Below are positions 7,038 to 53,656 of a DNA stretch of 64,000 bases, piece after piece (position 1 is the stretch's first letter; the number at the start of each line of letters is the position of its first letter). The stretch spans positions 7,744 to 71,743 of the forward strand of contig JACRKZ010000102.1 in NCBI GenBank assembly GCA_016235455.1, written 5' to 3'. Origin of the DNA: Armatimonadota bacterium (GTDB taxonomy: Bacteria; Armatimonadota; UBA10988). Made by a program: the position numbers and the translations under genes. Under the pieces are notes generated by a model. The model saw only the letters and a list, made by a program, of their open reading frames with translations, did not search any database and was not told the origin of the DNA.

Positions 7038-7093
7038 GGGCTCGGCTCCCAGCCCCATGGTACACGAGCGGAGGGTCCGTCGGCAACGCTTGC

Positions 7094-7744: not shown

Positions 7745-7787
7745 GCTCGGCTGTGACTCGCGGTGGCGACGACGTTACGCGGCGGTG

Positions 7788-9170: not shown

Positions 9171-9173
9171 CGC

Positions 9174-10037: not shown

Positions 10038-10046
10038 GGTCTGCTC

Positions 10047-11489: not shown

Positions 11490-13513
11490 CGCTCTGCCTC
11501 CCAGGCCAACAGGCGCGCCTCGTGCGCCTCGAGGGGCACATCGACATACCAGCGGCCCGTGCCGCCGTCGCGTTGCGCTGTCAGCAGGCCGGCGCGACCC
11601 GCGGCGCGTGTGCTCAGCAGCGGTCGCAGACTGCGCCGCTCGGGCAGCCAGACGCGTCGCGTCAGCGCTGTCGGCGAGTGCAGGCCGAGCACCTGATTGC
11701 TGGCGTACAGCGGGTGGTCGTCATCGCAGTAGATGTGCGCGCCGGCGCGCTGGGCGATCTCGCGCAGCAGCCAGCCAGGCACGGGCCCGACCGCCGACCA
11801 AGCCACGCGACTGTCACCCAGGCGGCCCTCGACCAGCCCGGCGTGGCCGTCGGGCGTGCGGCCCAGCACGTCCAGGTCGGCGGTGGTCACCGCCACGAAA
11901 CCCGGCTGCTGATCGGCCGCGAAACCGTAGTCATGCTCGCCCACACGCACCGACCGCACGGCGGGCACCTGGGCGAAATGCAGTCCGGTCAGCTCGGCCA
12001 TGGCCTCGACGCTCAGGCCGTCCTCGGCCACGAACCCCGGCGCGTAGGCCCACAGCAGCGTGCGGTCGGCGCCGCGCAGGCGCTTGACCGCCGCGCGCAG
12101 CTTCGCGCTCGGCGCGAACAGGTTGGGGAAGTAGATCAGCCGGTAGGCGTCGGCCGACCAGTCAGGATCGAGCAGGTCGCCGCTGAACACGATGTCGTAA
12201 GGCGTGCCCATGCGGCCCAGGCCGTCGAGCTGCCTAAGCAGCAGGCTCTGGGCCAGGCTGCCGCGCTGGTCCACGTACAGCAGCGAGGTCGTGTCGACGA
12301 CCACGGCCACCTGAGCCACCGAACGGTACGGTTGGTCGAGCAGCGATTCCGCGGCGGTCTGGGCCTGGCGGACAACGCTCCGCAGTCGATCGTCGTCGAA
12401 CCAGCCGCCGAACATGTCGAACCACCACAAGCCCTGGCCCTTGGCCAGCGCCAGGCAGGCGTCGCGGCCCATGACGCCGCTGGCCTGGTCGAAGTCGGCC
12501 AGCCGCGAGTCCTGGCCGGGGATCGGTTGGCCCTCGACATGCGTCACCGCGCTGGGCGTGATGTGGTCGAACTCCAGCAACGCCAGCTTGCCATGCCGGC
12601 GCAGGCTGTCCACCGGCATCATGAAGCTGCTGACCTGGTCGGCGCGGCGGTGATGGTAGTTGGCCGGGCAAAGGAAGAAGTCGAGATCCGCCGAGGCAAA
12701 GACCCGCTCGCAGTCCAGATGCCCGCCGAACAGCAGTTGCTGGCTGCCGAACTGGAGCACATAGCCAAAGAACGCGCCGAGCACTTTGCGATGGTCGAGC
12801 ACGCCTTGGGCCAGGCGTGCGAAATGCAGCAGCAGGTCGGCCACCTGCTCGTTGTGGAAGCGCCAGGCGTCGACGGCAGGCGATGCGGGGTCACGGAACT
12901 GGCCTTGAGCGAACACGCTCTCGCGCTCGGCCCGCGACGGCCACGGCCGACCCAGCGCGCGTTCGGCAGCCTCCACCTTGATCGGCTGGTCGGTGGCGTC
13001 GCGGTGACAGAACCACTCGTGAGTGCGACCGCCGAGCAGCGCATAGCCGGCGATGCGCTGGCCCCAGCGCGCCTCGCAATGGGCCAGCACGGCGGCCAGA
13101 TAGGCGCCGGCGTCCGCGCGCCAGGCCGGCGAGCTGGCCGCCTCGCCCAGGTCGGTGAACGGGTTGGCATGCCCGGGATGCGCCGCCAGCCACCACTCGG
13201 GCGGGTTGAGGTCGAGCATCATCAGCACCAGTTGGCCGCCCGACCAGGCCTCCAGATCGGCCATCTGCCGGTCGACCACAGTGAAGTCGTAGGTGCCCGG
13301 CGCGGTCCAGGCCGAGCCGTACAGGCTGTAGGGCACGCCGAGGCTGCACAGGTTGCCCGAGACCTGGGCATTGACGATGTCCACGCCCAGCGCGGCGAAC
13401 TCGGCCACATAGCGCTGTTGCGGGCGGAACGAGCGGAAGGTCACCGGCGCAATGGGCCGGTCGTCGACCAGCAGGCGCGGGTGGCCGAGCGTGGTGTCGA
13501 GGCGGGTGATCAT
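11486..13513 (-). CDS. Putative glycoside hydrolase (GH42-like beta-galactosidase architecture; family tentative)
   Basis: 675-aa ORF with coding-like composition. The stop overlaps the GH27 start (ATGA at 11486-11489). N-terminal TIM-barrel-like region; I recognise no sharp signature. Confidence 0.45.
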   Translation of the reverse strand: MITRLDTTLGHPRLLVDDRPIAPVTFRSFRPQQRYVAEFAALGVDIVNAQVSGNLCSLGVPYSLYGSAWTAPGTYDFTVVDRQMADLEAWSGGQLVLMMLDLNPPEWWLAAHPGHANPFTDLGEAASSPAWRADAGAYLAAVLAHCEARWGQRIAGYALLGGRTHEWFCHRDATDQPIKVEAAERALGRPWPSRAERESVFAQGQFRDPASPAVDAWRFHNEQVADLLLHFARLAQGVLDHRKVLGAFFGYVLQFGSQQLLFGGHLDCERVFASADLDFFLCPANYHHRRADQVSSFMMPVDSLRRHGKLALLEFDHITPSAVTHVEGQPIPGQDSRLADFDQASGVMGRDACLALAKGQGLWWFDMFGGWFDDDRLRSVVRQAQTAAESLLDQPYRSVAQVAVVVDTTSLLYVDQRGSLAQSLLLRQLDGLGRMGTPYDIVFSGDLLDPDWSADAYRLIYFPNLFAPSAKLRAAVKRLRGADRTLLWAYAPGFVAEDGLSVEAMAELTGLHFAQVPAVRSVRVGEHDYGFAADQQPGFVAVTTADLDVLGRTPDGHAGLVEGRLGDSRVAWSAVGPVPGWLLREIAQRAGAHIYCDDDHPLYASNQVLGLHSPTALTRRVWLPERRSLRPLLSTRAAGRAGLLTAQRDGGTGRWYVDVPLEAHEARLLAWEAER

Positions 13514-13620: not shown

Positions 13621-14382
13621 CTACCCTTCCGCGCCAAGCGGCACCAACTGCACCGACACGCCGCCATCCACCACCAGCCGCGCGCCAGTCACGTTGGCCG
13701 CGTCAAGGGAGGCGAAGTACAGCACCGCCGCCGCCACGTCGTCGGCACTCGCGGGCTCGCCAAGCGGGGCATTGGCCCGCCGCCGCGCGGCGACCTCGGG
13801 GTCCAGTGTCGCCCAGCGCTCGGTGAGGATGTAGCCCGGCGCCACGGTGTTCACGCGGATGCCGTGCGGCGCCAGGTCCAGCGCCATGGCCCGCGTCAGC
13901 GCGTCGATAGCGCCCTTGGAGGCGCAGTAGGCCGTGCGCCCGCGCACCGGCCGCTCGGCCGTGTTGGAGCTGACATTGACGATCGCGCCTCGCGTGCTCT
14001 GGTCGATCATGCGCCGCGCCGCAGCCTGTGCGCAGCGGTAGTAGCCCAGCACGTTGACCGCCATGACCGCCTCGAGCAGCTCGTCATCGACGTCTACGAA
14101 CGTCGGACCCAGGCCCAGATGGGCCGCGTTGTTGACCAGCACGTCCACCCCACCCAGCTCGCGGTCGACGATGTCGAACAGTGTTCGGACTCCGCACGCC
14201 GTGCCGAGGTCGGCGACGGCCGGCACCGCGCCGGGCACGCTGGCCACGGCGGCGTCGACATGGGCCGGGTCGGTGCCGTTGATGGCCACCCGCGCGCCCT
14301 CGGCGGCGAAACGCCGGGCAATGCCCAGACCGGTGTTGCGCGAGGAGCCAGTGACCACCACGCGCGCGCCGTCAAAGCGCAT
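13621..14382 (-). CDS. Short-chain dehydrogenase/reductase (SDR)
   Basis: VVTGSSRNTGLGIA (Rossmann TGxxxxxG), NNAA, YCASKGAIDALT (catalytic YxxxK), IRVNTVAPGYI. Confidence 0.9.
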   Translation of the reverse strand: MRFDGARVVVTGSSRNTGLGIARRFAAEGARVAINGTDPAHVDAAVASVPGAVPAVADLGTACGVRTLFDIVDRELGGVDVLVNNAAHLGLGPTFVDVDDELLEAVMAVNVLGYYRCAQAAARRMIDQSTRGAIVNVSSNTAERPVRGRTAYCASKGAIDALTRAMALDLAPHGIRVNTVAPGYILTERWATLDPEVAARRRANAPLGEPASADDVAAAVLYFASLDAANVTGARLVVDGGVSVQLVPLGAEG

Positions 14383-14383
14383 A

Positions 14384-15553
14384 TCAGGTCTCCTTCATCC
14401 ACGGCACCGCGTCGGGCGGGCGGATCTCGGTCAGCGTGCCCACGTAGTGCCGCAGGTTGCGCCGCTCGTAGGGATGCTGGGCGATGGCTTCCAGGTTCAG
14501 ATCCAGGCCCAGGCCGGGCGCCGTGGGGATGAGCATCTCGCCGGCGGCGAAGCGCACGTCCTCGGTAGTGACATCGCCACGCCAGGGGACATCGGTGTTC
14601 ATCGTCTCCAGCAGCCAGAAGTTGGGCACGCAGGCGGCCAGATGCAGCGTGGCCGCGTTGGCCACCGGGCCGATGGGGTTGTGCGGGCAGACCACGCGGC
14701 TGTAGGTTTCGGTCATGGCGGCGATCTTGCGCAACTCGCCGATGCCGCCCACATGGCTGACATCGGGCTGGAGGATGTCGGCGCAGCCCTGCTCCAGGTA
14801 GGTGCGCGCATCCCACCGCGAGTAGAGCCGCTCGCCGCCGGCGATGGGCACCCGGCTGCGGCGCACCACCTCCGCCATGCCCTCGGGGTGGTCGGGCATG
14901 ATCGGCTCCTCGAACCATGAGATGTCGAAGTCCTCCAGCGCGTGGGCGATGCGAATGGCCGTCGGCACGTCGAACCGGCCGTGGCCCTCGATGAGGATGT
15001 TGACCTCCGGCCCGACCGCCTCGGCGACCGCCGCCACACAGGCGATGGCCTGCCGCAGCTCGGCCTTCTCGATGGTGCGGTAGGCGGAGCCGAAGGGGTC
15101 CCACTTGAGCCCGCGGAAGCCCTGGTCGACCGCGATGCGGGCTTTTGCAGCAAACTCCTCGGGCGTCTTGGCCGGCGAGAACCAGCCGTTGGCGTAGCAC
15201 GGCACGCGGTCACGGCAGCGGCCGCCGAGCAACTGCCAGACCGGCACGCCGAGAGCCTTGCCCTTGATGTCCCAGAGCGCCATCTCGACACCCGACAGAG
15301 CGGTCATCAGCACCGGGCCGCCGCGCCAGTAGCTGTCGCGGTAGCACTCGTGCCAGATGGACTCGATGTCGTGCGGGTCGCGGCCGATGAGGTGGCGCTC
15401 CAACTCCTGCACCGCGGCCGCGGCCGTCGGCTCGCGCATCTCCAGCGTCGCCTCGCCGATGCCGTGCAGACCCTCGTCGGTCATCACCCGCACAAACACC
15501 CAGTTGGCGCGGTAGCAGTGGCAGAGGTAGGTCTCCAGGGCCGTGATCTTCAT
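14384..15553 (-). CDS. Enolase-superfamily sugar-acid dehydratase (galactonate/mannonate dehydratase family)
   Basis: MKITALETY...NWVFVRVMTDEGLHGIGEATL, YWRGGPV, ALWDIKGKALGVPVWQLLGG, EEP...GGE, QPDVSHVGGI. Confidence 0.8.
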   Translation of the reverse strand: MKITALETYLCHCYRANWVFVRVMTDEGLHGIGEATLEMREPTAAAAVQELERHLIGRDPHDIESIWHECYRDSYWRGGPVLMTALSGVEMALWDIKGKALGVPVWQLLGGRCRDRVPCYANGWFSPAKTPEEFAAKARIAVDQGFRGLKWDPFGSAYRTIEKAELRQAIACVAAVAEAVGPEVNILIEGHGRFDVPTAIRIAHALEDFDISWFEEPIMPDHPEGMAEVVRRSRVPIAGGERLYSRWDARTYLEQGCADILQPDVSHVGGIGELRKIAAMTETYSRVVCPHNPIGPVANAATLHLAACVPNFWLLETMNTDVPWRGDVTTEDVRFAAGEMLIPTAPGLGLDLNLEAIAQHPYERRNLRHYVGTLTEIRPPDAVPWMKET

Positions 15554-16386
15554 TCGGCGTCTCCAAACGGTGACTGGCTCATCTCGTCGCGCATGGGGTC
15601 CAGAGGCAGCGTGGCCCAGTCGATGACCGGCATGGGCCCGGGCAGCTCACCGCCGAGTTCGGCCGACAGCTCAACCGCCGCCGACCACAGCGCGGCGGTC
15701 ATGCGCGCGCAACGCTCACCGTCGGCGCGGAACGCTGGGCAGGCCACGCCAATCGACGCCACGGGCGCCCCTTTGGCCACGACCGGCAGCGCCAGCAGCA
15801 CCTGCCCGCCGTCGCGATCGGTGCGCAGCGCGCAGTAGCCCAGCGCGCGCACCCGCCGCAGATCCGCCTGCCAGGCCGCCAGCGAGCAGCCTGGCCGCGT
15901 GTCGGGGCTGCGCTCGACAAAGGCCGGCCAGGCCGCCTCGTCGCCGCAGGCCACCAGCAGTCGGCCCGTGGCCAGCTTGAGCGCCTGGGGCCAGGACCAT
16001 TGCGGGAAGTGGATGGTGATCGCCTCGGTGCCCGGCTGGAAGGCGATGAGCCGGGCCTCGAAGCCCAGCAGGATCGTCGCCGAGGCGGCCTCGCCCGATT
16101 CGCGCGCCACCCGCACGAGTTTGGGCTGGAGGATGTCGGGCAGCGCTTGCACCGGATCCCAGCGCGAAGCCAGCACGCCGGCCGCGGGCCCCAACCGGTA
16201 GCGTCCGTTGTGGTTCAGGAGGAAGTGACGCGTCGCCAGCGTGCGCAGCAGGTTGTGTACCGTGGCGACATGCAGCCCCAGCTCACGCGCCAGCTCCGAC
16301 ACGCCGATCTCGCCCGCTGCGGCCACCGCCTCCAGCAGGTCCAGCGCCCGCTCCACCGACTGCACCAGATTGCCCGTGTTCGCCAC
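15550..16386 (-). CDS. IclR-family transcriptional regulator
   Basis: GTG start with GGAGG 8 nt upstream. N-terminal wHTH: SVERALDLLEAVAAAGEIGVSELARELGLHVATVHNLLRTL. The stop overlaps the dehydratase start (4-nt overlap). Confidence 0.85.
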   Translation of the reverse strand: MANTGNLVQSVERALDLLEAVAAAGEIGVSELARELGLHVATVHNLLRTLATRHFLLNHNGRYRLGPAAGVLASRWDPVQALPDILQPKLVRVARESGEAASATILLGFEARLIAFQPGTEAITIHFPQWSWPQALKLATGRLLVACGDEAAWPAFVERSPDTRPGCSLAAWQADLRRVRALGYCALRTDRDGGQVLLALPVVAKGAPVASIGVACPAFRADGERCARMTAALWSAAVELSAELGGELPGPMPVIDWATLPLDPMRDEMSQSPFGDAE

Positions 16387-43483: not shown

Positions 43484-46225
43484 CTACTCGACGGTCAGCG
43501 CCAGATCATCCAGCTCACAGGAGCCGGCCACGTTGCCGGCGCAGATGAACATGACGCGGCTGAGCGTCTGGAAATCGTCGGCCAGCGGCACCTCGGCCCG
43601 CTGCTCGCGGCCGTCGGGCCAGGTCGCCGTGACGACGGCTCGCCGCGCGTCGGCCCGGCCCAGCGTGAACCGCACGCTCAGCCGCAGCCACTCGCCCGGC
43701 GAGAGCTGGCCGAGCGTCTGGCCGCCGGCCGTGACCCGGCCATCGCCGTTGACCTGCGCGCTAGGCCCACCGGCGAACTCGCGGCCGGTCTTGGGCTGGT
43801 AGTCGCGGAACTCGAAGGACACGCCGCACGGCGCGCCGGGCTCGGTTCGCACGCGGCCCGACAGTGTCACCGTGCCCGACGGCACCGGCCTGGCCAGCGT
43901 GTGCGACAGATACGGCAGGAATGAGCGCGTCGCCAGCACCGTGTCCGTCAGTCGCAGGCAGCGCCGGCCCTCCGCCGCCACCGCGTCGGTGACCCCGACA
44001 TCGGCCTGCCGCCCATCGGCCACCGCGACGACGAACTCGCGCGGCACCATGCCCACGGGCACATCCTCCAGGCTCAGCCGGAACCCCGGCACAGGCTCGG
44101 GAATGGCCGCCGGCTTCATCGCGTAGACCGGCGGCGGGGTCACGCGTACCGGCGCGGCCACGTCGCGGTAGTCCGCGCCGCGCCCCGCCTGGCTGGGATC
44201 GAACGGTACGAAGCCCAAGGCCAGGGCCGGCGACCCGGGCTTGAGCCGGAAGTCGCCGTGCGCCGGATCGACAAACAGCGGATCGGCTCTGACCGAGCCC
44301 TGGTCCTGCCCGAGCGCCTGCCATTCGGCCCAGGTCTTGCCCGCGAAGCCCAACGGCAGGCCGGCGGCGTTCCAGTACAGGTTCCCGCGACAGGCCATCA
44401 GCCCCAGCGGCCACACGGCATCAACCAGGTTGGGGCTGGTCGTGTAGCACAGGTTGCGCTCGAAGACGTTGGCCTTGGCGTACGGATTGGCGTAGCTGCG
44501 CACGAACGGCGCGGATTCGCCGTGCACCGGCCCGAAGATGTTGTTGCGAATGGTGTTCTGTGCGCCGCCGTTGATGTTGAACCCGTGCGTGCCCACGTTG
44601 TAGTCGAGGTTGTTCTCGACCAGCATCTCCGACGACCCTTCATCGAGATACAGGCCCAGTTGCCAGTGTTCCCGAGCGTGCGGGCCCTGCCGGTTGTCGT
44701 AGAGCACGTTGCCGGCGATGACCGTCCCCGGCTGTCGGCCGAGCGTATAGATGCTAGCGCCATCGGCCAGCAGCGACACGACGTTGTGAATGCGGTTGTA
44801 CTCGATGCGGTTGCCTCCGCAGGCGGTGGGCTGGTCGCTCCAGTTCCAGCCCACGGCAATGCCCGAATACGGGAAGTTCCAGATTTCGTTGTGCGCGATG
44901 ACCGTGTTGCGTACGATGCCGGCCCAGATCGCGTTGGCCGAGTAGTACATCAGCCCGCCGTCGGAGACCGCGCAGTTCTCGATGCGGTTGCCCGTCGGCA
45001 CTTCCGGCGCGGTGGCATCGCCCTTCATGGCAATATCGCCGATCTTGATGCCGCCGCCGCCCAGGTCATACAGCCGGCAGCCCGAGACACGATCGTCGGC
45101 GCAGCCCAGGCCCAGGCCGAGACCGTAGTTGCCGGTCTGCGCGATGGTGCAGCGCTCCCACACGCAGCCGCGCGCGCCGACCGCCTCGACCGCGGCGGGC
45201 AGGTCGGGCTGGGCCTGGGAGCCGCCGTAGCCCTCACGCGGCAACGGGGTCTCGGTGTGCGAGAACGTCAGCCGCTCGAACCGCACGTGGTCGACGAACC
45301 GGCCCTTGGCCCAGTCGCCCGCGAGCCGCAGCACACGGTCGAGCCGGGGCGCCACCAGTCGCGTGTCGGCCAGCGCCTCGCCTGGCAGGGGCAGGTAGGT
45401 CAGCGTCCCGGTCGGCCGATCCAGATACCACTCGCCCGGCTCGCGCAGCGCCTCGGCCACGTTCTCCACGTAGTAAGGGTTGTGTGGCCCGACCTGGCCG
45501 ATGGCGAAGGTCGGCAGGCCGGTGAACTCGACGATGCGGCTGGCTTCGTCGACGCGCGCGATGCGCAGGCGCGACGAACTCCACATGTGCAGCGCCACTA
45601 CCTCCACATCGTCCAGGTTGCGCCAGGGCCGAATGTCGCCGGCGAAGTAGACGAAGTCCTTCTGTGCCGCGCGGTGCGCCGCGGCTACGCGCCGGGGCGA
45701 GTAGGTCAGCTGGTCCACGGCCAACATGCCGAGATGCGGCCGGTAGCGCCGCTGATAGGGCCCGTTGCCCGTCGAGACGAACAGCTGCCGGAAGGTCCAC
45801 TGGCCCGCCGCCACCTCGGGCAGCGTGACGGTCCACTGGCGCCGGCCGCCGACCGTGCTCTCGCGCAACCCGCTCAGCGCGCGGCCGCCGCTGATCACCG
45901 GGCGCTCGTCGCGATAGGCGCGCCACACGGTCGGCGCCGCGGCCGTGCCGGAGTCCTCCGGCCCCAAGGTCCACGGCGCGTCCAGCGCGTAGGTCCCGCC
46001 GCGCAGCTCCACCGCCACCGGTCGGGCGGCGGCGCGCACTGCCTGCTGAGCGCGCCCGAGCGTGGCGAACGGACCATCGGTACCCGCGGCGTTGGCGGCC
46101 GGCAGCCGGCCCGACCAGGCGTCGCGGCCGGCGGGCGCCACGTAGAAGGTGGTCTGGCCCAGCGCGGCGACGGCACACAAGCCGGCGCACAACAGCGCTC
46201 GCGCGGGCAGTGGTATCGTGATCAT
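43484..46225 (-). CDS. Secreted right-handed parallel beta-helix repeat protein (glycan lyase/hydrolase-like)
   Basis: Trimmed to ATG 46225 (MITIPLPARALLCAGLCAVAALGQ). TFYVAPAGRD...GPFATLGRAQQAV; beta-helix repeats NRIENCAVSDGG, NTVIAHNEIWNFPYSGIAVGW, NRIEYNRIHN, NTIRNNIFG. Confidence 0.8.
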   Translation of the reverse strand: MITIPLPARALLCAGLCAVAALGQTTFYVAPAGRDAWSGRLPAANAAGTDGPFATLGRAQQAVRAAARPVAVELRGGTYALDAPWTLGPEDSGTAAAPTVWRAYRDERPVISGGRALSGLRESTVGGRRQWTVTLPEVAAGQWTFRQLFVSTGNGPYQRRYRPHLGMLAVDQLTYSPRRVAAAHRAAQKDFVYFAGDIRPWRNLDDVEVVALHMWSSSRLRIARVDEASRIVEFTGLPTFAIGQVGPHNPYYVENVAEALREPGEWYLDRPTGTLTYLPLPGEALADTRLVAPRLDRVLRLAGDWAKGRFVDHVRFERLTFSHTETPLPREGYGGSQAQPDLPAAVEAVGARGCVWERCTIAQTGNYGLGLGLGCADDRVSGCRLYDLGGGGIKIGDIAMKGDATAPEVPTGNRIENCAVSDGGLMYYSANAIWAGIVRNTVIAHNEIWNFPYSGIAVGWNWSDQPTACGGNRIEYNRIHNVVSLLADGASIYTLGRQPGTVIAGNVLYDNRQGPHAREHWQLGLYLDEGSSEMLVENNLDYNVGTHGFNINGGAQNTIRNNIFGPVHGESAPFVRSYANPYAKANVFERNLCYTTSPNLVDAVWPLGLMACRGNLYWNAAGLPLGFAGKTWAEWQALGQDQGSVRADPLFVDPAHGDFRLKPGSPALALGFVPFDPSQAGRGADYRDVAAPVRVTPPPVYAMKPAAIPEPVPGFRLSLEDVPVGMVPREFVVAVADGRQADVGVTDAVAAEGRRCLRLTDTVLATRSFLPYLSHTLARPVPSGTVTLSGRVRTEPGAPCGVSFEFRDYQPKTGREFAGGPSAQVNGDGRVTAGGQTLGQLSPGEWLRLSVRFTLGRADARRAVVTATWPDGREQRAEVPLADDFQTLSRVMFICAGNVAGSCELDDLALTVE

Positions 46226-46292
46226 CGGGGTGGCTCCGCGGGCCGCCTTCGCCGTCGGGCTCAGCACATCCTTCCGCGGCGCCGGACAGGTC

Positions 46293-46321
46293 GAACCGGA
46301 TCATGACATCCGGTGTCTTCA
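46293..46321 (+). promoter_or_regulatory. Candidate ECF-type promoter (GAAC-N19-TCTTCA) upstream of the ECF sigma gene
   Basis: GAAC at 46293-46296 and TCTTCA at 46316-46321; compare the RpoE/AlgU-type GAACTT-N16/17-TCTGA. The spacer contains the inverted repeat CCGGAT-catgac-ATCCGG. Use of this promoter implies the ATG 46337 start. Confidence 0.25.
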
Positions 46322-46336
46322 CTTCGGAAACGGTCG

Positions 46337-46918
46337 ATGCACGCCGAGCAGAATCCCACAACCCGAGACGCGGCTGCGTTCGAGGCGGCTTGTGCGCAGT
46401 GGCGTGGCGAGCTGCAGCGGCTGGCGCTGGGCATTCTGCGCCAACCCGACACGGCCGACGACGTGGTGCAGGAGGCGTTGCTGCGGCTGTGGACCGCCGA
46501 CCCGCCACCATCGACCCAGGGCACGCGGTCCTGGCTGCTCAGGGTCACCACCAACCTGGCGCTCAACGCGCTGCGCAGCGCGCGCCGCCGGCCGGCCGAC
46601 CCGGTCGATCCCGCGAGGCTGGGTCTGGCCCTGGCCGCGGGCGCGGGCCTGGCGGCCGGCAGTCAGCCGCCGGCCACGCCGCATCAGGCATTGGTACGCG
46701 CCGAGACCGACGGCCTGTACCGTCGCGCCCTGGCCGACCTGCCGCCTGCTCAGCGGCAGATCGTGTCGCTGGTCTACGAATCCGAGATGCGCCTGCGCGA
46801 TGTGGCGGAGGCGCTCGGGGTGCCCGAGGGCACCGTCAAGTCGCGGCTGCACGCCGCCCGCGCCAAACTGTCGCGCCGCTGGCGCGAACTGGCCCCCGAC
46901 TGGGAGGATGAGTCATGA
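46337..46918 (+). CDS. ECF (group 4) sigma-70 family RNA polymerase sigma factor
   Basis: ATG 46337 (the track ORF starts at GTG 46313). Region 2: ADDVVQEALLRLW, SWLLRVTTNLALNALRSARRRP. Region 4: LPPAQRQIVSLVYESEMRLRDVAEALGVPEGTVKSRLHAARAKL. Confidence 0.9.
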   Translation: MHAEQNPTTRDAAAFEAACAQWRGELQRLALGILRQPDTADDVVQEALLRLWTADPPPSTQGTRSWLLRVTTNLALNALRSARRRPADPVDPARLGLALAAGAGLAAGSQPPATPHQALVRAETDGLYRRALADLPPAQRQIVSLVYESEMRLRDVAEALGVPEGTVKSRLHAARAKLSRRWRELAPDWEDES

Positions 46919-49881
46919 ACCCCATTCCGCCAACCCCCTGGCACGCCGCCTCGTTTGACCACTGCCTGCGCGGCAGCCTCCCGCGGCTTCTTGCCGAGCG
47001 ACTGCCGTTGAGCGGTTACCACGTCGCGCCCGGCGAGGACGGCCAGGTGCGCGTGACGGTGACCGTCGACGCGGCCGCCGCCGTCTACCACCTGCCGGCG
47101 CCCACGCCGGACGGCGTTTTCCACACGCCGCGCGGACCGCGCGTGGTCACGCCGTTGGTGGCCCATGACGATCTGGCCACGGCGGCGGTGGCCTGCGTGG
47201 GCGAGCAGTTGGCCACCATCGTCGAAACGCGCCTGGGCGTCGCGCCGGCCGACATCCCCTGGGACGAGGCGCTGCTGCGCGCCTGGCTGCCGCTGGACGG
47301 TTGGCTGGCCGAGTTGCTGGCCACCGCCGCGCCGCTGGACGAGCGCAATCTGCTGGCCCGCCTGACGCATCTGCGGCGCATCCGCGTGACCGCCATCGGG
47401 CCCGACGGACCGATCCTGCTGCCCGGTCACTGGGGCCGGGTCTGTCCCGTGGAGTCGCCCGAGGGCGAGAACCTGGGCCGGGTGCTGGTGCTGGCGCGCG
47501 GCGCCGGCATCGCCCACGGCCGTATCCTGCCCGCCGGCGCCGAGCCCGCGGAGCAGCTCGGACCTGGCGCGGCCTGCATCCCGTTCCTGCATCACGACGA
47601 CGGCGTACGCGCGCTGATGGGCGCCAACATGATGCGCCAGTGGCTGCCACCCGAGGCGCCGGAGCCGGCGCTGGTGGTCACCGGCCTGGAGCCCGGTGAG
47701 CCGGCGCTGTGGTGCGGGCGCAACCTGCTCACCGGCTACCTGGATGTGGGCGCCGACACCCACGAGGATGCGCTGGTGGTCAGTGCCTCGGCCGCCTCCC
47801 GCCTGGGCCAGCAGGCGCCGCTGGAGCCCGGTGACAAGCTCAGCAACCGCCACGGCCAGAAAGGCGTGGTCAGCGCGATCTGGCCCGACGCGGCCATGCC
47901 GCGGCTGGCCGACGGCACGCCACTCGACCTCGTCGTCAGCCATCTCGGCGTGCAGACCAGGCTCAACCTCGGCCAACTGCTGGAGGCCGTCGCCGGCCGG
48001 CTGGCCCGCGCGGAAGGCCAGGCCGTGGCAGCGCCACCCTACAGCGGGCCGAGCGTCGACGACCTGCGCCAGCGGCTGCGCGCCGCAGGCCTGCCCGAGG
48101 ACGGCATGGAGCGGCTGAGCCTCGACGGCGCGGCGCTGGAACTGCCGTCGACGGTCGGCTACGTGTACTGGGGCAAGCTCTACTTGCGCGCGGCGCCGGC
48201 CCTGCACAGCCAGCCCGCGGGCCATGCCGGCGAGCGCATGGGGTGGCTGGACCACGCTTGCGTGCGCGAGAGCGGCTGCCGCGCCATCCCGGCCGAATGG
48301 GGCGGTCTGGGCTCGGTGGCACGGCTGGCACCGGGCGAACTCGCCGAGCTGCTGGCCGCCGGCGAGCCGCCACCACTGGGTCCGCCGACGCCCTGGCTGG
48401 CGGCGCTGACGCGGCGCCTGGCGGTGCTCGGCATCGGCGTCGAGATCGACAGTGCCGGCCTGCATTTCGGGCTGCGTGAGCCGGACGACGCGCTGGAACT
48501 GGCCGAGCCGGTGCCGCATCCGTGGCACCGCGACCTGCTGCTGACCCGCCTGGGGCCATGGAGCGGCGACGCCTGGGAGGCCACCCTGGCCGCTAACGCC
48601 AGGTTGGCCCGGCTGCGGGCCGAGGCCGCGCCCGACGCCTTGCTGCAGCCCGCGCGCGGCGCGCTGGCCAGCGCCATCGAGGCGCTGGCGCGGCGGCTGG
48701 TGCGCCGCGAGCACCTGTGCGCCGGCGACCGCGTGGCCTACAGCGGTCGTGCGGTCATCGCGCCCGGCGGCGACCTGTGCTGGGACCAGGTCGGCCTGCC
48801 GCGCGACCTGGCGGAGCCGTTGTTCGCGCCGCTGCTGGCCCGGAGCGGCGAGACGGACTTGGCGGCGGTGATGGCGCGGCACTGGCTGTTGGTGACCCGC
48901 GCGCCGGCCGTGGCGGCCTCCGCTCATGTGGCGCTGCGGCCGGTGCTGGTGCCCGACCGCGTCATCCGGCTGCATGCGCTGACGCTGATGATGCTCAACG
49001 CCGACTTTGACGGTGATCAGGTGGCGGTGATGCTGCCGCTCACCGCCGCCACGCAGGCCGAGGCGGCGCAGCGGCTGAGCATCGGCGCCCACCTGGAGCG
49101 CGATTCAGGCTTGCTGGGCTCGCTGCTGCCGCCCATGTCGGCACGCTGGGGCCTGGCCTGGCTCAGCCTGACCACCGCCGGCCGGCAGCAGATCGCCCAC
49201 CTGCTGGGCTTCGAGCTGCCCGACGATGGCCACTTGACCCGCGCCGGCCTGCTGGAAGCCGCGGCGCAGATACGGCTGCGCGACGGCGTGGACGGCCTGA
49301 TGGGCACTCTCGACGCGTTGACCCGGCTGGGCTTCGCCGCGGCCCGGCGTAGCGGCGCGTCGCTGGCGCCGTTCGCCGGCACCACGCGCGCCCTGCCGCC
49401 GCAGCCGCAAGACGATGATCGCGTGGCCTGGGCGGCCTACGCCGAGCAACTCGTCGAGTGCCTGCGGGCCGTGGAGGACTATGCCAACCCCGACCTCGGG
49501 CCGCAGATCCTCGCCGTCAAGTCCGGCGCGCGCGGTACGTGGCGCTTCTTCGAGCGGATGCTCGGCGGCCAGCTCCTACCCGATGGCGCGGCCGGGCTGA
49601 CCCCGCAGAGGCATTCGCAGATCGAGGGCCTGAGCCCCGAGGAGTACCGCCTGCGCCTGCACTCTGGCCGTAGCGCGCTGGCCATGTGGCTCCAGAGCTG
49701 GACGGCCACCTGCACCAGCATCCGCGAGGGCGCCGGCCCGCATGGCTTCGGCGTGCTGGCGCGCGCCTGCCACTCGGCGCAGCCGGGCGTCATCTTCGCC
49801 CGCGCCGCGCTCACCGGCGAGTGCGACCCCCTGGCTGACGCCGCCAGCCGCCTGTTCGTCGGCGTCGCGGACCGCGGGTAG
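46915..49881 (+). CDS. Miniature collinear RpoB-RpoC (beta-beta') fusion: single-polypeptide two-barrel RNA-polymerase-like protein (988 aa)
   Basis: The ATG overlaps the sigma gene's stop (ATGA, 46915-46918), with GGGAGGA 6 nt upstream. Beta motifs in order: THLRRIRVTAIGPDG, GRVCPVESPEGENLG, FLHHDDGVRALMGANMMRQ, THEDAL, GDKLSNRHGQKG, DGTPLDLVVSHLGVQTRLNLGQLLE, VGYVYWGKL, RLAVLGIGVEID. Beta' motifs in order: ELAEPVPHPW, GDRVAYSGRAVI, NADFDGDQVAVMLPL, SGARG, EGLSPEEYRLRLHSGRSALA. Confidence 0.85.
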   Translation: MNPIPPTPWHAASFDHCLRGSLPRLLAERLPLSGYHVAPGEDGQVRVTVTVDAAAAVYHLPAPTPDGVFHTPRGPRVVTPLVAHDDLATAAVACVGEQLATIVETRLGVAPADIPWDEALLRAWLPLDGWLAELLATAAPLDERNLLARLTHLRRIRVTAIGPDGPILLPGHWGRVCPVESPEGENLGRVLVLARGAGIAHGRILPAGAEPAEQLGPGAACIPFLHHDDGVRALMGANMMRQWLPPEAPEPALVVTGLEPGEPALWCGRNLLTGYLDVGADTHEDALVVSASAASRLGQQAPLEPGDKLSNRHGQKGVVSAIWPDAAMPRLADGTPLDLVVSHLGVQTRLNLGQLLEAVAGRLARAEGQAVAAPPYSGPSVDDLRQRLRAAGLPEDGMERLSLDGAALELPSTVGYVYWGKLYLRAAPALHSQPAGHAGERMGWLDHACVRESGCRAIPAEWGGLGSVARLAPGELAELLAAGEPPPLGPPTPWLAALTRRLAVLGIGVEIDSAGLHFGLREPDDALELAEPVPHPWHRDLLLTRLGPWSGDAWEATLAANARLARLRAEAAPDALLQPARGALASAIEALARRLVRREHLCAGDRVAYSGRAVIAPGGDLCWDQVGLPRDLAEPLFAPLLARSGETDLAAVMARHWLLVTRAPAVAASAHVALRPVLVPDRVIRLHALTLMMLNADFDGDQVAVMLPLTAATQAEAAQRLSIGAHLERDSGLLGSLLPPMSARWGLAWLSLTTAGRQQIAHLLGFELPDDGHLTRAGLLEAAAQIRLRDGVDGLMGTLDALTRLGFAAARRSGASLAPFAGTTRALPPQPQDDDRVAWAAYAEQLVECLRAVEDYANPDLGPQILAVKSGARGTWRFFERMLGGQLLPDGAAGLTPQRHSQIEGLSPEEYRLRLHSGRSALAMWLQSWTATCTSIREGAGPHGFGVLARACHSAQPGVIFARAALTGECDPLADAASRLFVGVADRG

Positions 49882-51114: not shown

Positions 51115-52149
51115 ATGGCCGCTCGCTGGCTGCGCTGTCTGTTGTTGGTCCTGCCCCTCGCCGCCGGAGCCGCTCCGGCTCGCACCGAGCATGTCAGCGA
51201 TGGCGCCGAACTGATGGCCGCCGTGGCGCGCGGTGGCGGCGAACGCAGCATCGTGCTCGACGCGGGTACCTATGAGATAAGTGGGACTCTGAGCTTCGAG
51301 CGCGTGAACCAGGTAAGCGTGCTGGGCAGCGGCTGGAATACGGTCATTCGCAAGACCGGGCCCGGCCCGGCCATGGCCTTCGCCGACTGCGGCTTCTGCC
51401 TGGTGCGCGACCTGCTGATCGTCGGTGACGGCAAGGCTCAGGCCGGCATCGTCTTTGGCGGCCAGAGCAGCTCCAACACCGTCGACAAGTGCCGACTGGC
51501 CGACTTCCTGCTGAGCGGCATCCGCTTCCAGGGCGAGGCCGCCCGCCCCATGTCGTCCAACGTGGTGCGCGACTGCCACTTCGTCGACAACGCTGCCGCG
51601 CAGCTCTACAGCGAGTACAACAACGACTACGCGATCAGCGGCTGCCAGTTTGGCGCGCACCACTCGACCCCCGCCGCCGGCGCGCAGTTGTTGCACTCGT
51701 CGGCCGGCAACTACACCGGTAACTTCCATTGGGGCAACCAGAACGCGCTACTGCTGGGGCCCGGCAGCAACTTCAACCGCATCCAGGCCAACCGCCTGGA
51801 GGAGAGCCAGCGCGAGGCGCTGATCATCGGCTCACCCGAGCCCAGCCCCGCCTGGTCGGGTCATTGCAGCCTGAACATCATCACGGGCAACACCTTCCAC
51901 ACCAACTCCAAGCAAGAGAAGGGCCGCTACGACGCCATCGCCGCCTACGACGCGGTGGACACGACGTTCACCTCGAACCAGGTGTTCTCGTGGGACTCCG
52001 ACCACTTCCGCCACCGCGCGGCGTTGGCGCTGGGTCGCGGCTGTGGCACGTGGATCGTCCGGGACAACATCCTGCGGCACCACACCGGGCCGGCGCTCGT
52101 GTTCGATGCCGGTTCGGGGCATCTGGTGAAGGACAACCTGGGCCAGTAG
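51115..52149 (+). CDS. Secreted right-handed beta-helix (pectate-lyase-fold) protein
   Basis: GGGAG upstream. Signal MAARWLRCLLLVLPLAAGAAPA. Repeats: NTVDKCRLADFLLSGIRFQG, NVVRDCHFVDNAAAQL, NFNRIQANRLEES, NIITGNTFHTNS. Confidence 0.75.
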   Translation: MAARWLRCLLLVLPLAAGAAPARTEHVSDGAELMAAVARGGGERSIVLDAGTYEISGTLSFERVNQVSVLGSGWNTVIRKTGPGPAMAFADCGFCLVRDLLIVGDGKAQAGIVFGGQSSSNTVDKCRLADFLLSGIRFQGEAARPMSSNVVRDCHFVDNAAAQLYSEYNNDYAISGCQFGAHHSTPAAGAQLLHSSAGNYTGNFHWGNQNALLLGPGSNFNRIQANRLEESQREALIIGSPEPSPAWSGHCSLNIITGNTFHTNSKQEKGRYDAIAAYDAVDTTFTSNQVFSWDSDHFRHRAALALGRGCGTWIVRDNILRHHTGPALVFDAGSGHLVKDNLGQ

Positions 52150-52399
52150 GCGGGGGAACCAGCTCGATCACGCTGGATTGCCACGGGCCGGCTATGCCTT
52201 GAGGGCGCCGCCACGGGCTCCATGTTCCTGTCAAGGCGATTCCGCTCGCGAACGAGCGCCCGCTGACGATCGCCGCGCCCGGTCGAGTCCTCGTATTGCG
52301 ACATTGTGATCTCCTTCGGTTTACTCCCGGGGGTATTCAGGGTATGAAGCGAAAATAGACCAGGCGTGTCCGATTATGCGGCGCGCCCCGGAGGACGAT

Positions 52400-53656
52400 A
52401 TGGAACTTCGCGGATCCGTGTCAGGACGAGGGCGTACCCTCACTGCTCGACCAACGACGGTGGTGCTGGGGCTGATGGTGGGTGTGCTGCCCTGGCTGAC
52501 CAGCTGCGGTAGCGCCAGCGATGCCGGTGGCAACCCACTGGCCGCGGCCGGCCCGACGAGTGAAGGCGGCCGGGCGGTCGCCTCGAACCCGTATGTGGTC
52601 ATCGGCTGGAACGATCTGGGCATGCACTGCATGAACCAGGACTTCTCGAATCTGATGATCCTGCCGCCGTACAACACACTGCACGCGCAGGTCATCCGGC
52701 GCGGTGAGGAGCCGCAGATCGTCAGCAGCGGCGTGACGGTGAACTACAGCGTGCCGGGCAACACGCGCTCGAGTACCAAGACGAACTTCTGGCAGTACGC
52801 CAAGGCCCTGACCGGCCTGACCTTGGCCAACGATGTCGGCTTGACGGGCCACCGGCTGGCCGGGACCATGACCGCGACGAGCAATCGAGACTGGAGCGTG
52901 ACCGGCGTGCCCATCACTCCGGTGACCGATGTGGGCGCGCTGAACGCCTACCAGATGGCCAGCATCAGTGTGGCTAGCCGGGGTACCACGGTGGCCAACA
53001 CACAGGCGGTGATACCAGTCTCGTGGGAGATAAGCTGCAATCTGTGTCACAACACGCCGGGCATCTCGCCCGATGTGGACATCCTGCGCAAGCACGACAG
53101 CCTGCACGGCACCCAACTGGTCAAGCAGCGGCCGGTGAACTGCGCCAAGTGCCATGCCGAGCCGAACCTGGGCTCGACCGGCGCGCCTGGCGTCAAGAGC
53201 CTGTCGGCCGCCATGCACGGCTCACACGCCAAGCGCATGGCCTCCGCCAAGCTGACCAACGAATGCTACGCCTGTCACCCTGGCGTCAAGACCAACTGCC
53301 AGCGTGACGTGCACAAAGCCAAGGGCATCACCTGCACCGCCTGCCACGGCTCCATGGCCACGGTGGCCGCGCCGAGTAGGCGCCCGTGGGTCGATGAGCC
53401 GAGCTGCGGCAGCTGCCACAAGCGCGCCGGGTTCGAGTTCGAGCAGCCTGGCAAGCTGTTCCGCGACAGCAAGGGCCATCATGGGGTCCAGTGCGCGGCT
53501 TGCCACGGCAGCCCGCACGCCGTCGGGCCCGCTGTGAACGCGGCCGACAACGCCCAGGCCATCGCCCTGCAAGGTCATGCCGGCCCGATCGACACCTGCA
53601 CGGTCTGCCACACCAAGCGGCCGGACGAGGCGTTCGAGCATCGGCTCGACGACTGA
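52400..53656 (+). CDS. Multihaem (7 x CxxCH) c-type cytochrome lipoprotein
   Basis: ATG 52400 with GGAGGA upstream. Lipobox LPWLTSCGS. Haem-binding motifs: CNLCH, CAKCH, CYACH, CTACH, CGSCH, CAACH, CTVCH. Confidence 0.85.
   Translation: MELRGSVSGRGRTLTARPTTVVLGLMVGVLPWLTSCGSASDAGGNPLAAAGPTSEGGRAVASNPYVVIGWNDLGMHCMNQDFSNLMILPPYNTLHAQVIRRGEEPQIVSSGVTVNYSVPGNTRSSTKTNFWQYAKALTGLTLANDVGLTGHRLAGTMTATSNRDWSVTGVPITPVTDVGALNAYQMASISVASRGTTVANTQAVIPVSWEISCNLCHNTPGISPDVDILRKHDSLHGTQLVKQRPVNCAKCHAEPNLGSTGAPGVKSLSAAMHGSHAKRMASAKLTNECYACHPGVKTNCQRDVHKAKGITCTACHGSMATVAAPSRRPWVDEPSCGSCHKRAGFEFEQPGKLFRDSKGHHGVQCAACHGSPHAVGPAVNAADNAQAIALQGHAGPIDTCTVCHTKRPDEAFEHRLDD

What the first reader, a model, noticed from the sequence alone, without database searches (positions are those of the whole stretch)
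46915..49881. Deletion pattern keeps a clamp-helix-like sigma-2 docking hairpin but removes the flap, the Zn ribbon and the C-terminal modules
Only about 60 residues separate RQWLP (res ~243) from GDKLSNRHG (res 306). In cellular beta this interval holds the large wall/flap segment, including the flap-tip helix that docks sigma region 4. The beta' N-terminal zinc ribbon that precedes HIELAAPVAHIWF is absent. The protein ends just after a trigger-loop-like GECDPLADAASRLFVG (compare GEPGTQLTMRTFHxGG), so the jaw, the second trigger helix and the omega-binding C-terminus are missing. The N-terminal ~140 aa match nothing I recognise. Directly upstream of GDRVAYSGRAVI there is an Ala/Leu/Arg-rich segment, DAWEATLAANARLARLRAEAAPDALLQPARGALASAIEALARRLV (nt ~48568-48702). 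It sits where beta' carries the clamp-helix coiled coil, the principal sigma region 2 binding site. This predicts sigma-dependent -10 recognition with altered or absent -35/region-4 geometry.
Basis: inference. Interest (0 to 1): 0.7.

Follow-up and report, generated by a model that had tools for sequence, protein, structure and literature searches.

The report
Sigma-paired minimal single-chain RNA polymerase
A 988-residue bacterial protein fuses stripped-down versions of the two catalytic RNA polymerase subunits, keeps the coiled-coil that normally holds the sigma factor, and is almost always encoded directly behind its own sigma factor, so it looks like a naturally miniaturised, promoter-specific transcription machine that I could not find described anywhere.

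Summary
The ORF at 46915-49881 is real. It is a single-chain beta::beta' RNA polymerase of bacterial type, and its AF2 model is confident (pLDDT 92.7).

**Confirmed by profile alignment to E. coli:**
- The flap (beta 823-1053) is cut out at its base.
- There is no Zn ribbon and no rudder.
- Nearly everything after the bridge helix is gone.
- The helical hairpin at residues 552-596 aligns without gaps to the beta' clamp helices (267-311) and shares the N-x-R-L-x-R-L-L face.

**Two reader details are wrong:**
[quoted passage not shown] - The N-terminus does match beta.

**New context:**
- An ECF sigma gene lies directly upstream, with an ATGA overlap, in 76 of 79 related loci from at least six phyla. 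No third gene is conserved.
- A promoter, TGAAC-N15-GGTGTC, precedes the sigma gene in 59 of 74 loci, always with the same spacer.

Sigma dependence is therefore well supported. "Absent -35" is not supported, because region 4 and a -35 box are both conserved.

No member of the family turned up in viral contigs, defence-system models or the literature I could search. Physical sigma binding, polymerase activity and the regulon remain untested.

The parts
46292..46297 (+). -35 box (cGAACC) of the family promoter, upstream of the sigma gene
   Evidence: GAAC-N15-GGTGTC is found upstream of sigma in 59 of 74 loci with an invariant spacer. It is the only site in the window with 1 mismatch or fewer. 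Sequence read.
46312..46317 (+). -10 box (GGTGTC) of the family promoter. It overlaps the GTG at 46313 that the ORF list uses as the sigma start.
   Evidence: PWM score 20 bits.
46337..46918 (+). ECF sigma factor gene with regions 2 and 4. The probable start is ATG 46337 with SD GGAAA at 46326-46330. The listed ORF starts at 46313.
   Evidence: Pfam Sigma70_r2 2.4e-12 and Sigma70_r4_2 2.2e-15. NCBIfam TIGR02937 scores 80.1 bits against a cut-off of 42.9. Start inferred from the promoter position.
46902..46918 (+). Translational coupling signal: SD GGAGGA (46902-46907) and an ATGA stop/start overlap (46915-46918)
   Evidence: Sequence read.
46915..49881 (+). Single-chain beta::beta' RNA polymerase gene, 988 aa
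46921..47214 (+). Residues 3-100: reduced beta N-terminal region (conserved SFxxF and PxxxxxGxFxxxGxxxVVV blocks). The lobe is deleted.
   Evidence: hhalign to E. coli beta 24-172, probability 78%, E=1.8e-5. Weak.
47215..47514 (+). Residues 101-200: beta fork / rifampicin-region block (E. coli beta about 460-581)
47803..47823 (+). Residues 297-303: the scar where the beta flap (E. coli 823-1053) is excised
   Evidence: HMM and hhalign alignments.
47830..47865 (+). Residues 306-317: GDKLSNRHGQKG, the catalytic lysine motif of the beta double-psi barrel
   Evidence: G306, D307, K308, R312, G314 and G317 are invariant in 60 sequences. Aligned to E. coli 1063-1074.
48232..48456 (+). Residues 440-514: beta C-terminal region, aligned through to the last residue of E. 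coli beta (1268-1342)
   Evidence: hhalign probability 85%.
48493..48567 (+). Residues 527-551: two beta-strands and a loop at the beta/beta' junction. This is either lid-like (beta' 241-263) or the HIELASPxAHIWF strand. The mapping is unresolved.
48568..48702 (+). Residues 552-596: helical hairpin, the homologue of the beta' clamp helices and the predicted sigma region 2 docking site
   Evidence: Gapless register with E. coli beta' 267-311. Shared residues are N276, R278, L279, R281, L282, A287, P288 and L299. AF2 helices 552-569 and 574-595. No indels in the family.
48703..48762 (+). Residues 597-616: switch 2 (RREHLCAGDRVAYSGRAVI). It follows the hairpin directly, and the rudder (E. coli 311-336) is deleted.
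48997..49017 (+). Residues 695-701: NADFDGD, the catalytic Mg-binding loop of the beta' double-psi barrel
   Evidence: D697, D699, G700 and D701 are invariant..
49636..49734 (+). Residues 908-940: bridge helix. Its C-terminal half is the least conserved part of the family.
   Evidence: AF2 helix 908-940. Aligned to E. coli beta' 769-797. Conservation.
49783..49863 (+). Residues 957-983: conserved C-terminal motif VFARAAAxGExDPLxDxxSRLFVG, which corresponds to beta'/A''/Rpb1 region H and not to the trigger loop
   Evidence: hhalign score 17.8 against region H and 7.7 against the trigger loop. The top two PDB-wide hits are archaeal A'' 332-370 and Rpa1 1646-1667.

Best explanation
The two genes form a self-contained, sigma-dependent minimal transcription module.

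**Shown.**
- The 988-aa protein is a bacterial-type beta::beta' fusion reduced to the catalytic core. It keeps both double-psi barrels, the fork, switch 2, the beta C-terminus, the funnel, the F-loop, the bridge helix and region H. All catalytic residues are conserved.
- Of the peripheral modules, it keeps the clamp-helix coiled-coil.
- It is co-transcribed and translationally coupled with an ECF sigma.
- The pair sits behind a family-specific promoter, TGAAC-N15-GGTGTC.

**Inferred.**
- Sigma region 2 docks on hairpin 552-596, as it does on the beta' clamp helices in ordinary holoenzymes. Sigma then opens the -10 GGTGTC element, and region 4 reads the TGAAC -35 box.
- There is no flap-tip helix, so region 4 must be positioned by the sigma linker or by another surface.
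- The enzyme then elongates without a trigger loop, flap, Zn ribbon, rudder, lid-proximal clamp parts, jaw, alpha or omega. It should therefore be insensitive to hairpin pausing and termination, NusA, Gre factors and alpha-dependent activators.
- The module activates its own operon and an unidentified regulon located elsewhere in the genome.

For: **Clamp helices retained while their neighbours are deleted.**

**Sigma linkage.** A sigma gene lies directly upstream on the same strand in 16 of 16 genome loci and in 76 of 79 loci overall. These come from Armatimonadota, Planctomycetota, Chloroflexota, Poribacteria, Latescibacterota and Myxococcota. There is an ATGA overlap and an SD sequence. No other gene is conserved nearby and there is no anti-sigma.

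**Promoter.** It has an invariant spacer in 59 of 74 loci. CGGTGTC occurs in 47 of 68 dereplicated upstream regions, against 1.1 expected. In L117, which lacks an adjacent sigma gene, the same promoter sits directly in front of the polymerase gene.

**Precedent for the contacts.** In solved ECF holoenzymes, sigma2 binds the clamp helices and sigma4 binds the flap-tip helix (PMC6648896).

**Precedent for activity without a trigger loop.** YonO is an active RNAP with no trigger-loop homology (PMC5467207).
Against: - No tool here shows physical contact between the sigma and the hairpin. A covariation test with 44 pairs showed no enrichment on the hairpin, but it was underpowered.
- The promoter spacing looks canonical. 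That would be equally expected if the host core enzyme, which has a flap, reads the promoter with this sigma.
- Three of 79 loci lack an adjacent sigma.
- Only one possible extra target promoter was found in about 1 Mb of flanking DNA (L137). The regulon is therefore unknown.
- The E. coli residues whose mutation affects sigma70 binding, R275, E295 and A302 (from my own knowledge), are not conserved in the family.
- Losing the flap, the Zn ribbon and the rudder also removes the channel that the ECF linker normally threads.
Confidence: 0.65

Rival explanations
1. The sigma works only with the host's ordinary core RNA polymerase and merely switches on the gene for the fused protein. The fused protein then polymerises RNA without sigma, for example by factor-independent or end-primed synthesis like other single-chain two-barrel enzymes.
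For: - The promoter has ordinary ECF architecture: a -35 and a -10 box at a fixed, canonical-looking spacing. That fits a flap-containing holoenzyme.
- In L117 the polymerase gene alone sits behind the promoter. L087 and L099 have no sigma nearby.
- Known single-chain relatives such as YonO are not known to use sigma.
Against: - The clamp-helix hairpin has no indels and keeps the N-x-R-L-x-R-L-L face, while the flanking rudder, N-terminal clamp and Zn ribbon were deleted. That retention is hard to explain without a binding partner.
- The ATGA coupling and 96% adjacency across phyla are typical of subunits of one complex.
- Three of the seven positions equivalent to the sigmaE flap-tip contacts are polar or charged in the family sigmas. 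This is weak evidence.
Confidence: 0.18
2. The fused protein is mainly a regulator rather than a polymerase. It acts as a decoy core that sequesters its sigma (an anti-sigma-like sink) or that competes for promoters.
For: - No anti-sigma gene is conserved next to this autoregulated sigma, so some other brake is needed.
- The sigma-docking hairpin is retained.
Against: - Every catalytic motif (NADFDGD, GDKxxxRHGxKG, the ED pair, NRAP) is invariant or nearly invariant across about 40%-identical sequences from several phyla.
- About 950 of 988 residues superimpose on the catalytic core. A decoy would not need this.
Confidence: 0.05
3. The cassette belongs to a phage, a defence system or another mobile element, and transcribes that element rather than host genes.
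For: - Its phyletic distribution is patchy across distant phyla.
- Other reduced two-barrel RNAPs are viral or plasmid-borne (PMC2919709; PMC10770324).
Against: - No family member was found among 2.9 million viral contigs. The best viral relatives are two-gene beta/beta' enzymes at 22-27% identity.
- There is no PADLOC hit.
- The flanks are not conserved and hold ordinary chromosomal genes.
- The cassette is present in complete 5-6 Mb chromosomes.
Confidence: 0.07

Closest known systems
Bacterial RNA polymerase holoenzyme with an ECF sigma factor (e.g. E. coli sigmaE-RPo, M. tuberculosis sigmaH-RPo; PMC6648896)
   Same: - Bacterial-type beta and beta' catalytic core, with up to about 45% identity in the barrels.
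- Clamp-helix coiled-coil retained in register.
- A two-domain ECF sigma.
- A -35 GAAC / -10 GTC type promoter.
   Different: - One chain of 988 aa instead of beta + beta' (about 2,750 aa in E. coli), plus two alpha and omega in the canonical core (own knowledge).
- No flap or flap-tip helix, which is the sigma4 dock.
- No Zn ribbon, rudder, lobe, trigger loop, jaw or second Zn site.
- The RNA-exit channel that the ECF linker threads is largely gone.
Natural full-length beta::beta' fusions (NCBIfam NF011417 / NF007172, Helicobacter- and Wolbachia-type)
   Same: Beta is fused N-terminal to beta' in one polypeptide.
   Different: Those proteins are about 2,800-2,900 aa and keep all modules. This protein scores 139 and 131 bits against cut-offs of 4632 and 5372. 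In the 50%-identity library there is a score gap between the roughly 1,000-aa family (above about 800 bits for full-length members) and fusions of 1,900-2,800 aa (about 470 bits or less).
Kluyveromyces lactis killer-plasmid pGKL2 Orf6, a 982-aa Rpb2::Rpb1 fusion (PMC2919709)
   Same: It is a single chain of nearly the same size, in the same beta-then-beta' order, with about half of each subunit deleted.
   Different: It is of eukaryotic/plasmid origin and derived from Rpb2/Rpb1. No sigma-family partner is described in that paper. It was not compared by sequence here.
YonO of Bacillus prophage SPbeta and related single-chain two-barrel RNAPs (QDE-1, crAss-like phi14:2 gp66, P23-45 gp64/gp96)
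   Same: Single-chain two-barrel enzymes lacking the trigger loop, flap, lobe and rudder. YonO is catalytically competent despite this.
Jumbo-phage non-virion RNAPs (phiKZ, AR9)
   Different: They are split into several polypeptides. They are viral and use a phage-specific fifth subunit rather than a sigma70-family factor (own knowledge; PMC7598289 was listed but not read in detail).

Membership tests
Multisubunit-type (two-barrel) DNA-dependent RNA polymerase catalytic core | Beta'-type double-psi barrel with the NADFDGD Mg-binding loop | tested here: met
   Residues 695-701. D697, D699 and D701 are invariant in 60 sequences.
Multisubunit-type (two-barrel) DNA-dependent RNA polymerase catalytic core | Beta-type double-psi barrel with the GDKxxxRHGxKG lysines and the ED pair | tested here: met
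   Residues 306-317 and HEDA 283-286. Pfam Rpb2_6 4e-29.
Multisubunit-type (two-barrel) DNA-dependent RNA polymerase catalytic core | Bridge helix | tested here: met
   AF2 helix 908-940, aligned to E. coli beta' 769-797. The C-terminal half is poorly conserved.
Multisubunit-type (two-barrel) DNA-dependent RNA polymerase catalytic core | Trigger loop (GEPGTQLTMRTFHxGG and second trigger helix) | tested here: not met
   Only 48 residues follow the bridge helix. They score 7.7 (E=0.5) against the trigger loop and 17.8 against region H. The PDB-wide top hits are region H of A'' and Rpa1.
Multisubunit-type (two-barrel) DNA-dependent RNA polymerase catalytic core | Template-dependent RNA synthesis | not testable with these tools
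   Needs biochemistry.
Canonical bacterial core enzyme (alpha2-beta-beta'-omega; rpoB/rpoC equivalogs) | Full-length beta and beta' that reach the NCBIfam equivalog cut-offs | tested here: not met
   TIGR02013 scores 153 bits against 801. TIGR02386 scores 76 bits against 963.
Sigma70-family-dependent holoenzyme | Beta' clamp-helix coiled-coil (sigma region 2 dock) | tested here: met
   Residues 552-596 align without gaps to E. coli beta' 267-311, inside an E=9e-43 match. Helices in the AF2 model. No indels in the family.
Sigma70-family-dependent holoenzyme | Beta flap with flap-tip helix (sigma region 4 dock) | tested here: not met
Sigma70-family-dependent holoenzyme | A cognate sigma with regions 2 and 4 | tested here: met
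   The upstream gene passes TIGR02937 (80.1 bits against 42.9). Pfam finds regions 2 and 4. It is adjacent in 76 of 79 loci.
Sigma70-family-dependent holoenzyme | Bipartite -35/-10 promoter read by the holoenzyme | tested here: inconclusive
   The conserved TGAAC-N15-GGTGTC motif exists. Which polymerase uses it cannot be determined.
Sigma70-family-dependent holoenzyme | Physical sigma-core complex | not testable with these tools
   No multimer prediction is available. Covariation with 44 pairs was underpowered.
YonO/QDE-1-like single-chain two-barrel polymerases | Similarity to beta/beta' restricted to a few catalytic residues; own fold elaborations | tested here: not met
ECF sigma factors (the upstream gene) | Regions 2 and 4 only, passing the sigma70-ECF superfamily model | tested here: met
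   No ECF subgroup model reaches its cut-off; the best is PRK12513, 89 bits against 206.

The most novel reading that the evidence does not exclude
A free-standing two-protein bacterial transcription machine. A roughly 110-kDa single-chain beta::beta' core plus one ECF sigma would carry out promoter-specific initiation and elongation with no alpha, omega, flap, Zn ribbon, rudder or trigger loop. It would be the smallest known sigma-dependent RNA polymerase, and a natural experiment showing that the clamp helices, possibly with a lid-like strand, are the only peripheral module that sigma function strictly needs.
Probability: 0.5. Interest if true: 0.9.

Novelty: new variant of a known kind. Interest (0 to 1): 0.78.

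Why it matters
**Mechanism.** Which parts of the 400-kDa bacterial RNA polymerase are truly needed for sigma-dependent promoter recognition has so far been addressed mainly with engineered deletions. Here evolution seems to have done the experiment. Everything peripheral is gone except the sigma region 2 dock, and the enzyme stays tied to a sigma that still has region 4 and a -35 box. If the pair is active, it shows how region 4 can work without the flap-tip helix. It also shows that a bacterial-type active site can do without the trigger loop.

**Application.** The pair would be a compact (about 3.6 kb), potentially orthogonal, sigma-programmable transcription system for synthetic biology.

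**Biology.** Many environmental bacteria, across at least six phyla, would have a second, private transcription channel of unknown purpose.

Tried and rejected
1. **Trigger-loop reading of GECDPLADAASRLFVG.** Rejected in favour of beta' region H.
Neither confirmed nor rejected. The sub-alignment hhalign gives E=0.019. The full-length hhalign prefers the lid region. A PDB-wide profile search of residues 500-553 found only unrelated proteins.
3. **Sigma-polymerase covariation** (MI with APC, 44 paired sequences). No enrichment on the hairpin: 1 of the top 20 pairs against 1.2 expected. Too few sequences to mean anything.
4. **SigmaE flap-tip contact positions in the family sigmas.** Three of seven are polar or charged. 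This is suggestive only, because the alignment between distant ECFs is unsure.
5. **Defence-system models.** No hit for the polymerase.
6. **Viral origin.** No family member among viral contigs.
7. **A third conserved gene or an anti-sigma.** None found.
8. **Further promoter copies.**
   - None in the 64-kb window above chance.
   - One good extra site in about 1 Mb of related loci (L137).
9. **Natural sigma-polymerase fusion proteins.** None among the best 150 representatives.
10. **Sigma70-type promoters and intrinsic terminators around the operon.** None.
11. **Literature.** Nine full-text searches found no description of a sigma-linked fused mini-RNAP. Iyer & Aravind 2012 (PMC3769190), the paper most likely to mention it, is not held.
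12. **Tools I could not use.** The afdb50 fold library was unavailable. I did not attempt a tethered sigma-polymerase AF2 model.

Full report

**Checking the observation.** I mapped the protein onto E. coli numbering in three ways: the family HMM against E. coli RpoB/RpoC, profile-profile alignments to canonical beta and beta' alignments, and sub-alignment tests.

| Subunit | Retained (E. coli numbering) | Missing |
|---|---|---|
| beta | about 24-172 in reduced form (weak: probability 78%); 442-581; 649-707; 789-822; 1054-1148; 1177-1342, up to the last residue | the lobe; 582-648; 708-788; the flap, where 823-1053 is replaced by about four residues |
| beta' | about 238-310; 337-514; 587-640; 716-805; a short C-terminal piece | about 1-237 (Zn ribbon, zipper, N-terminal clamp); 311-336 (rudder); essentially everything from about 806 to 1310 (second Zn site, trigger loop, jaw); the last ~55 residues |

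No cysteine is invariant in the family.

- **The hairpin.** Residues 552-596 form two helices in the model (552-569 and 574-595). The hairpin has no indel in 60 sequences. It aligns without gaps to E. coli beta' 267-311, sharing N276, R278, L279, R281, L282, A287, P288 and L299. The central observation therefore holds: flap, Zn ribbon and C-terminal modules are gone, and a clamp-helix hairpin is kept.

- **Correction 1: the C-terminal motif.** The family consensus VFARAAAxGExDPLxDxDSRLFVG is not trigger-loop-like. Against the trigger-loop segment it scores 7.7 (E=0.5). Against beta' region H ([24 protein letters not shown], E. coli 1331-1354) it scores 17.8 (E=0.005). In an unbiased search of all PDB sequences, its two best hits are archaeal subunit A'' residues 332-370 (SVLARA...AAERGEVDPLNGV...G) and Pol I Rpa1 1646-1667. 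Each hit is marginal on its own (E=0.075 and 0.89), but both fall on the same region H. Only 48 residues follow the bridge helix, and the bridge helix's C-terminal half is the least conserved part of the protein. The trigger loop is therefore most likely absent entirely. The deletion is internal, not a C-terminal truncation.

- **Correction 2: the N-terminus.** It is not unrecognisable. Residues 81-200 are the beta fork / rifampicin-region block. Residues 3-100 align weakly to the conserved N-terminal blocks of beta.

- **Unresolved.** The Zn ribbon is absent under either reading.

- **A coupled sigma gene.** The gene immediately upstream (ORF 46313-46918) is an ECF sigma factor with regions 2 and 4. 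Its stop codon overlaps the polymerase start (ATGA), and a GGAGGA Shine-Dalgarno lies 7 nt upstream.
- **Size of the polymerase family.** There are more than 600 homologues at 90% clustering. About 80 full-length 50%-identity clusters measure 940-1101 aa. A score gap separates them from ordinary and full-length-fused enzymes.
- **Distribution.** Members occur in Armatimonadota, Planctomycetota/Phycisphaerae, Chloroflexota, Poribacteria, Latescibacterota, Myxococcota and Gemmatimonadota, including complete 5-6 Mb chromosomes.
- **Conserved pairing.** A homologous sigma lies directly upstream on the same strand in 16 of 16 genome loci, and in 76 of 79 loci with enough upstream sequence. The exceptions are L087, L099 and L117. 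Nothing else is conserved nearby, and there is no anti-sigma.
- **Not viral or defence-linked.** The family is absent from 2.9 million viral contigs, whose best relatives are two-gene phage beta/beta' enzymes at 22-27% identity. It matches no defence-system model.

**A family promoter.**
- **Motif.** Upstream of the sigma genes there is a strongly conserved bipartite motif, TGAAC(C/T)ttt...gCGGTGTCnT, followed by an A.T.GAGG block that looks like a start site plus Shine-Dalgarno. GAAC-N15-GGTGTC occurs in 59 of 74 loci, always with a 15-nt spacer. Most of the remaining loci carry one-base variants.
- **In the window.** The site is 46292-46317. Its -10 box overlaps the GTG that the ORF list uses as the start, so the sigma probably begins at ATG 46337 (SD GGAAA at 46326-46330).
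- **Elsewhere.** A PWM scan of about 1.04 Mb of related loci finds strong sites almost only at this position. In L117, which has no adjacent sigma, the motif sits directly in front of the polymerase gene. In L137 a second copy precedes a CBM9-like secreted protein. No further site in the 64-kb window exceeds chance.

[quoted passage not shown] This protein keeps the first dock in register, possibly with a lid-like strand pair. It lacks the second dock and most of the channel.

- **Best reading.** Taken with the near-obligatory, translationally coupled sigma gene, the best-supported reading is a sigma-dependent minimal polymerase in which sigma2 docks on residues 552-596 (confidence 0.65).
- **Sigma-dependent -10 recognition.** This prediction is thereby supported indirectly.
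- **Absent -35 / region 4.** This prediction is contradicted. Region 4 is intact and a -35 box is conserved at a rigid spacing that, from my knowledge of ECF promoters, is within the normal range.
- **Altered geometry.** Whether region 4 sits differently on this enzyme cannot be decided, because the same promoter could be read by host core plus this sigma. That possibility feeds the main rival (0.18): the sigma only switches the gene on, and the polymerase acts without it. Against this rival stand the selective retention of the hairpin among deleted neighbours and the operon coupling.
- **Other rivals.** A pure decoy or anti-sigma role (0.05) is unlikely given the invariant catalytic motifs. 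A mobile-element role (0.07) has no support.

**Expected behaviour of the enzyme (inferred).**
- Loss of the trigger loop has a precedent in YonO. YonO is fast but less accurate and lacks cleavage activity (PMC5467207).
- Loss of the flap, Zn ribbon and rudder predicts insensitivity to hairpin-dependent pausing and termination and to NusA.
- A single chain removes the need for alpha- and omega-assisted assembly.

These points are inferences, not results.

**Comparison and novelty.** The closest known things are listed below.
- The ECF holoenzyme: same parts list, but vastly larger and multisubunit.
- Full-length beta::beta' fusions: same gene order, nothing deleted.
- The yeast killer-plasmid Orf6: a 982-aa Rpb2::Rpb1 fusion (PMC2919709).
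- The YonO, QDE-1, crAss and P23-45 single-chain enzymes: similarly minimal, but hardly alignable to beta/beta' and not sigma-linked.
- Jumbo-phage non-virion RNAPs.

None of these combines a bacterial-type single-chain core with a sigma70-family partner. Nine literature searches found no description. One likely source could not be read, so prior mention cannot be excluded. I class it as a new variant of a known kind.

**Limits.**
- There is no evidence of physical interaction, activity or regulon.
- The beta N-terminus, lid and region H mappings rest on weak profile scores.

Noticed in passing
window 46312-46339: The family -10 box (GGTGTC, 46312-46317) overlaps the GTG at 46313 that starts the listed sigma ORF. 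ATG 46337, preceded by GGAAA (46326-46330), is the more likely start. That makes the sigma 193 aa with a very short leader.
   Followed up: partly
L117 about 825-900; L087 and L099 upstream regions: Three loci lack a sigma gene next to the polymerase. In L117 the same TGAAC-N15-GGTGTC promoter sits directly in front of the polymerase gene, so the sigma must be encoded elsewhere. L087 and L099 show neither a sigma nor the motif.
   Followed up: partly
L137 about 15791-15820 (minus strand), upstream of ORF 13773-15857: A second strong copy of the promoter motif (23 bits) lies about 20 nt upstream of a 694-aa secreted CBM9-like/DUF5916 protein. It is the only candidate regulon member seen in about 1 Mb of flanking DNA.
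   Followed up: partly
family sigma alignment (loci L001-L161), sigma2/sigma4 linker: The family sigmas share a conserved P-x-W-M-x-D motif in the linker, a region that is normally unconserved in ECF sigmas. The window's own sigma lacks it and has an Ala/Gly/Pro-rich linker instead.
   Followed up: no
window residues 547-552 of the polymerase (nt ~48553-48570) and the same position in homologues: Some family members carry 20-35-residue insertions in the loop just before the first hairpin helix, which is the lid-loop position. The hairpin itself never varies in length.
   Followed up: no
window 52345-52370 (+): A 2-mismatch match to the promoter pattern (TGAAGC...GCGTGTC) ends 6 nt before the ATG of a multihaem cytochrome c gene (52376-53656). 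Sites of this quality occur at chance frequency in the window.
   Followed up: partly
L164 (ORF 5763-10100) and L203 (ORF 5751-11981), viral contigs: Among phage relatives, most have separate beta-like (~890 aa) and beta'-like (~1000 aa) genes. Two contigs instead carry single ORFs of 1445 and 2076 aa that span the matched region, so they may be other fused phage RNAPs.
   Followed up: no
window 43484-46267 (-) and 51115-52149 (+): The operon is flanked by secreted right-handed beta-helix proteins (one with a GH141-like insertion), a URO-D-like gene and a multihaem cytochrome. The divergent upstream gene leaves only about 45-90 nt for the sigma promoter.
   Followed up: partly
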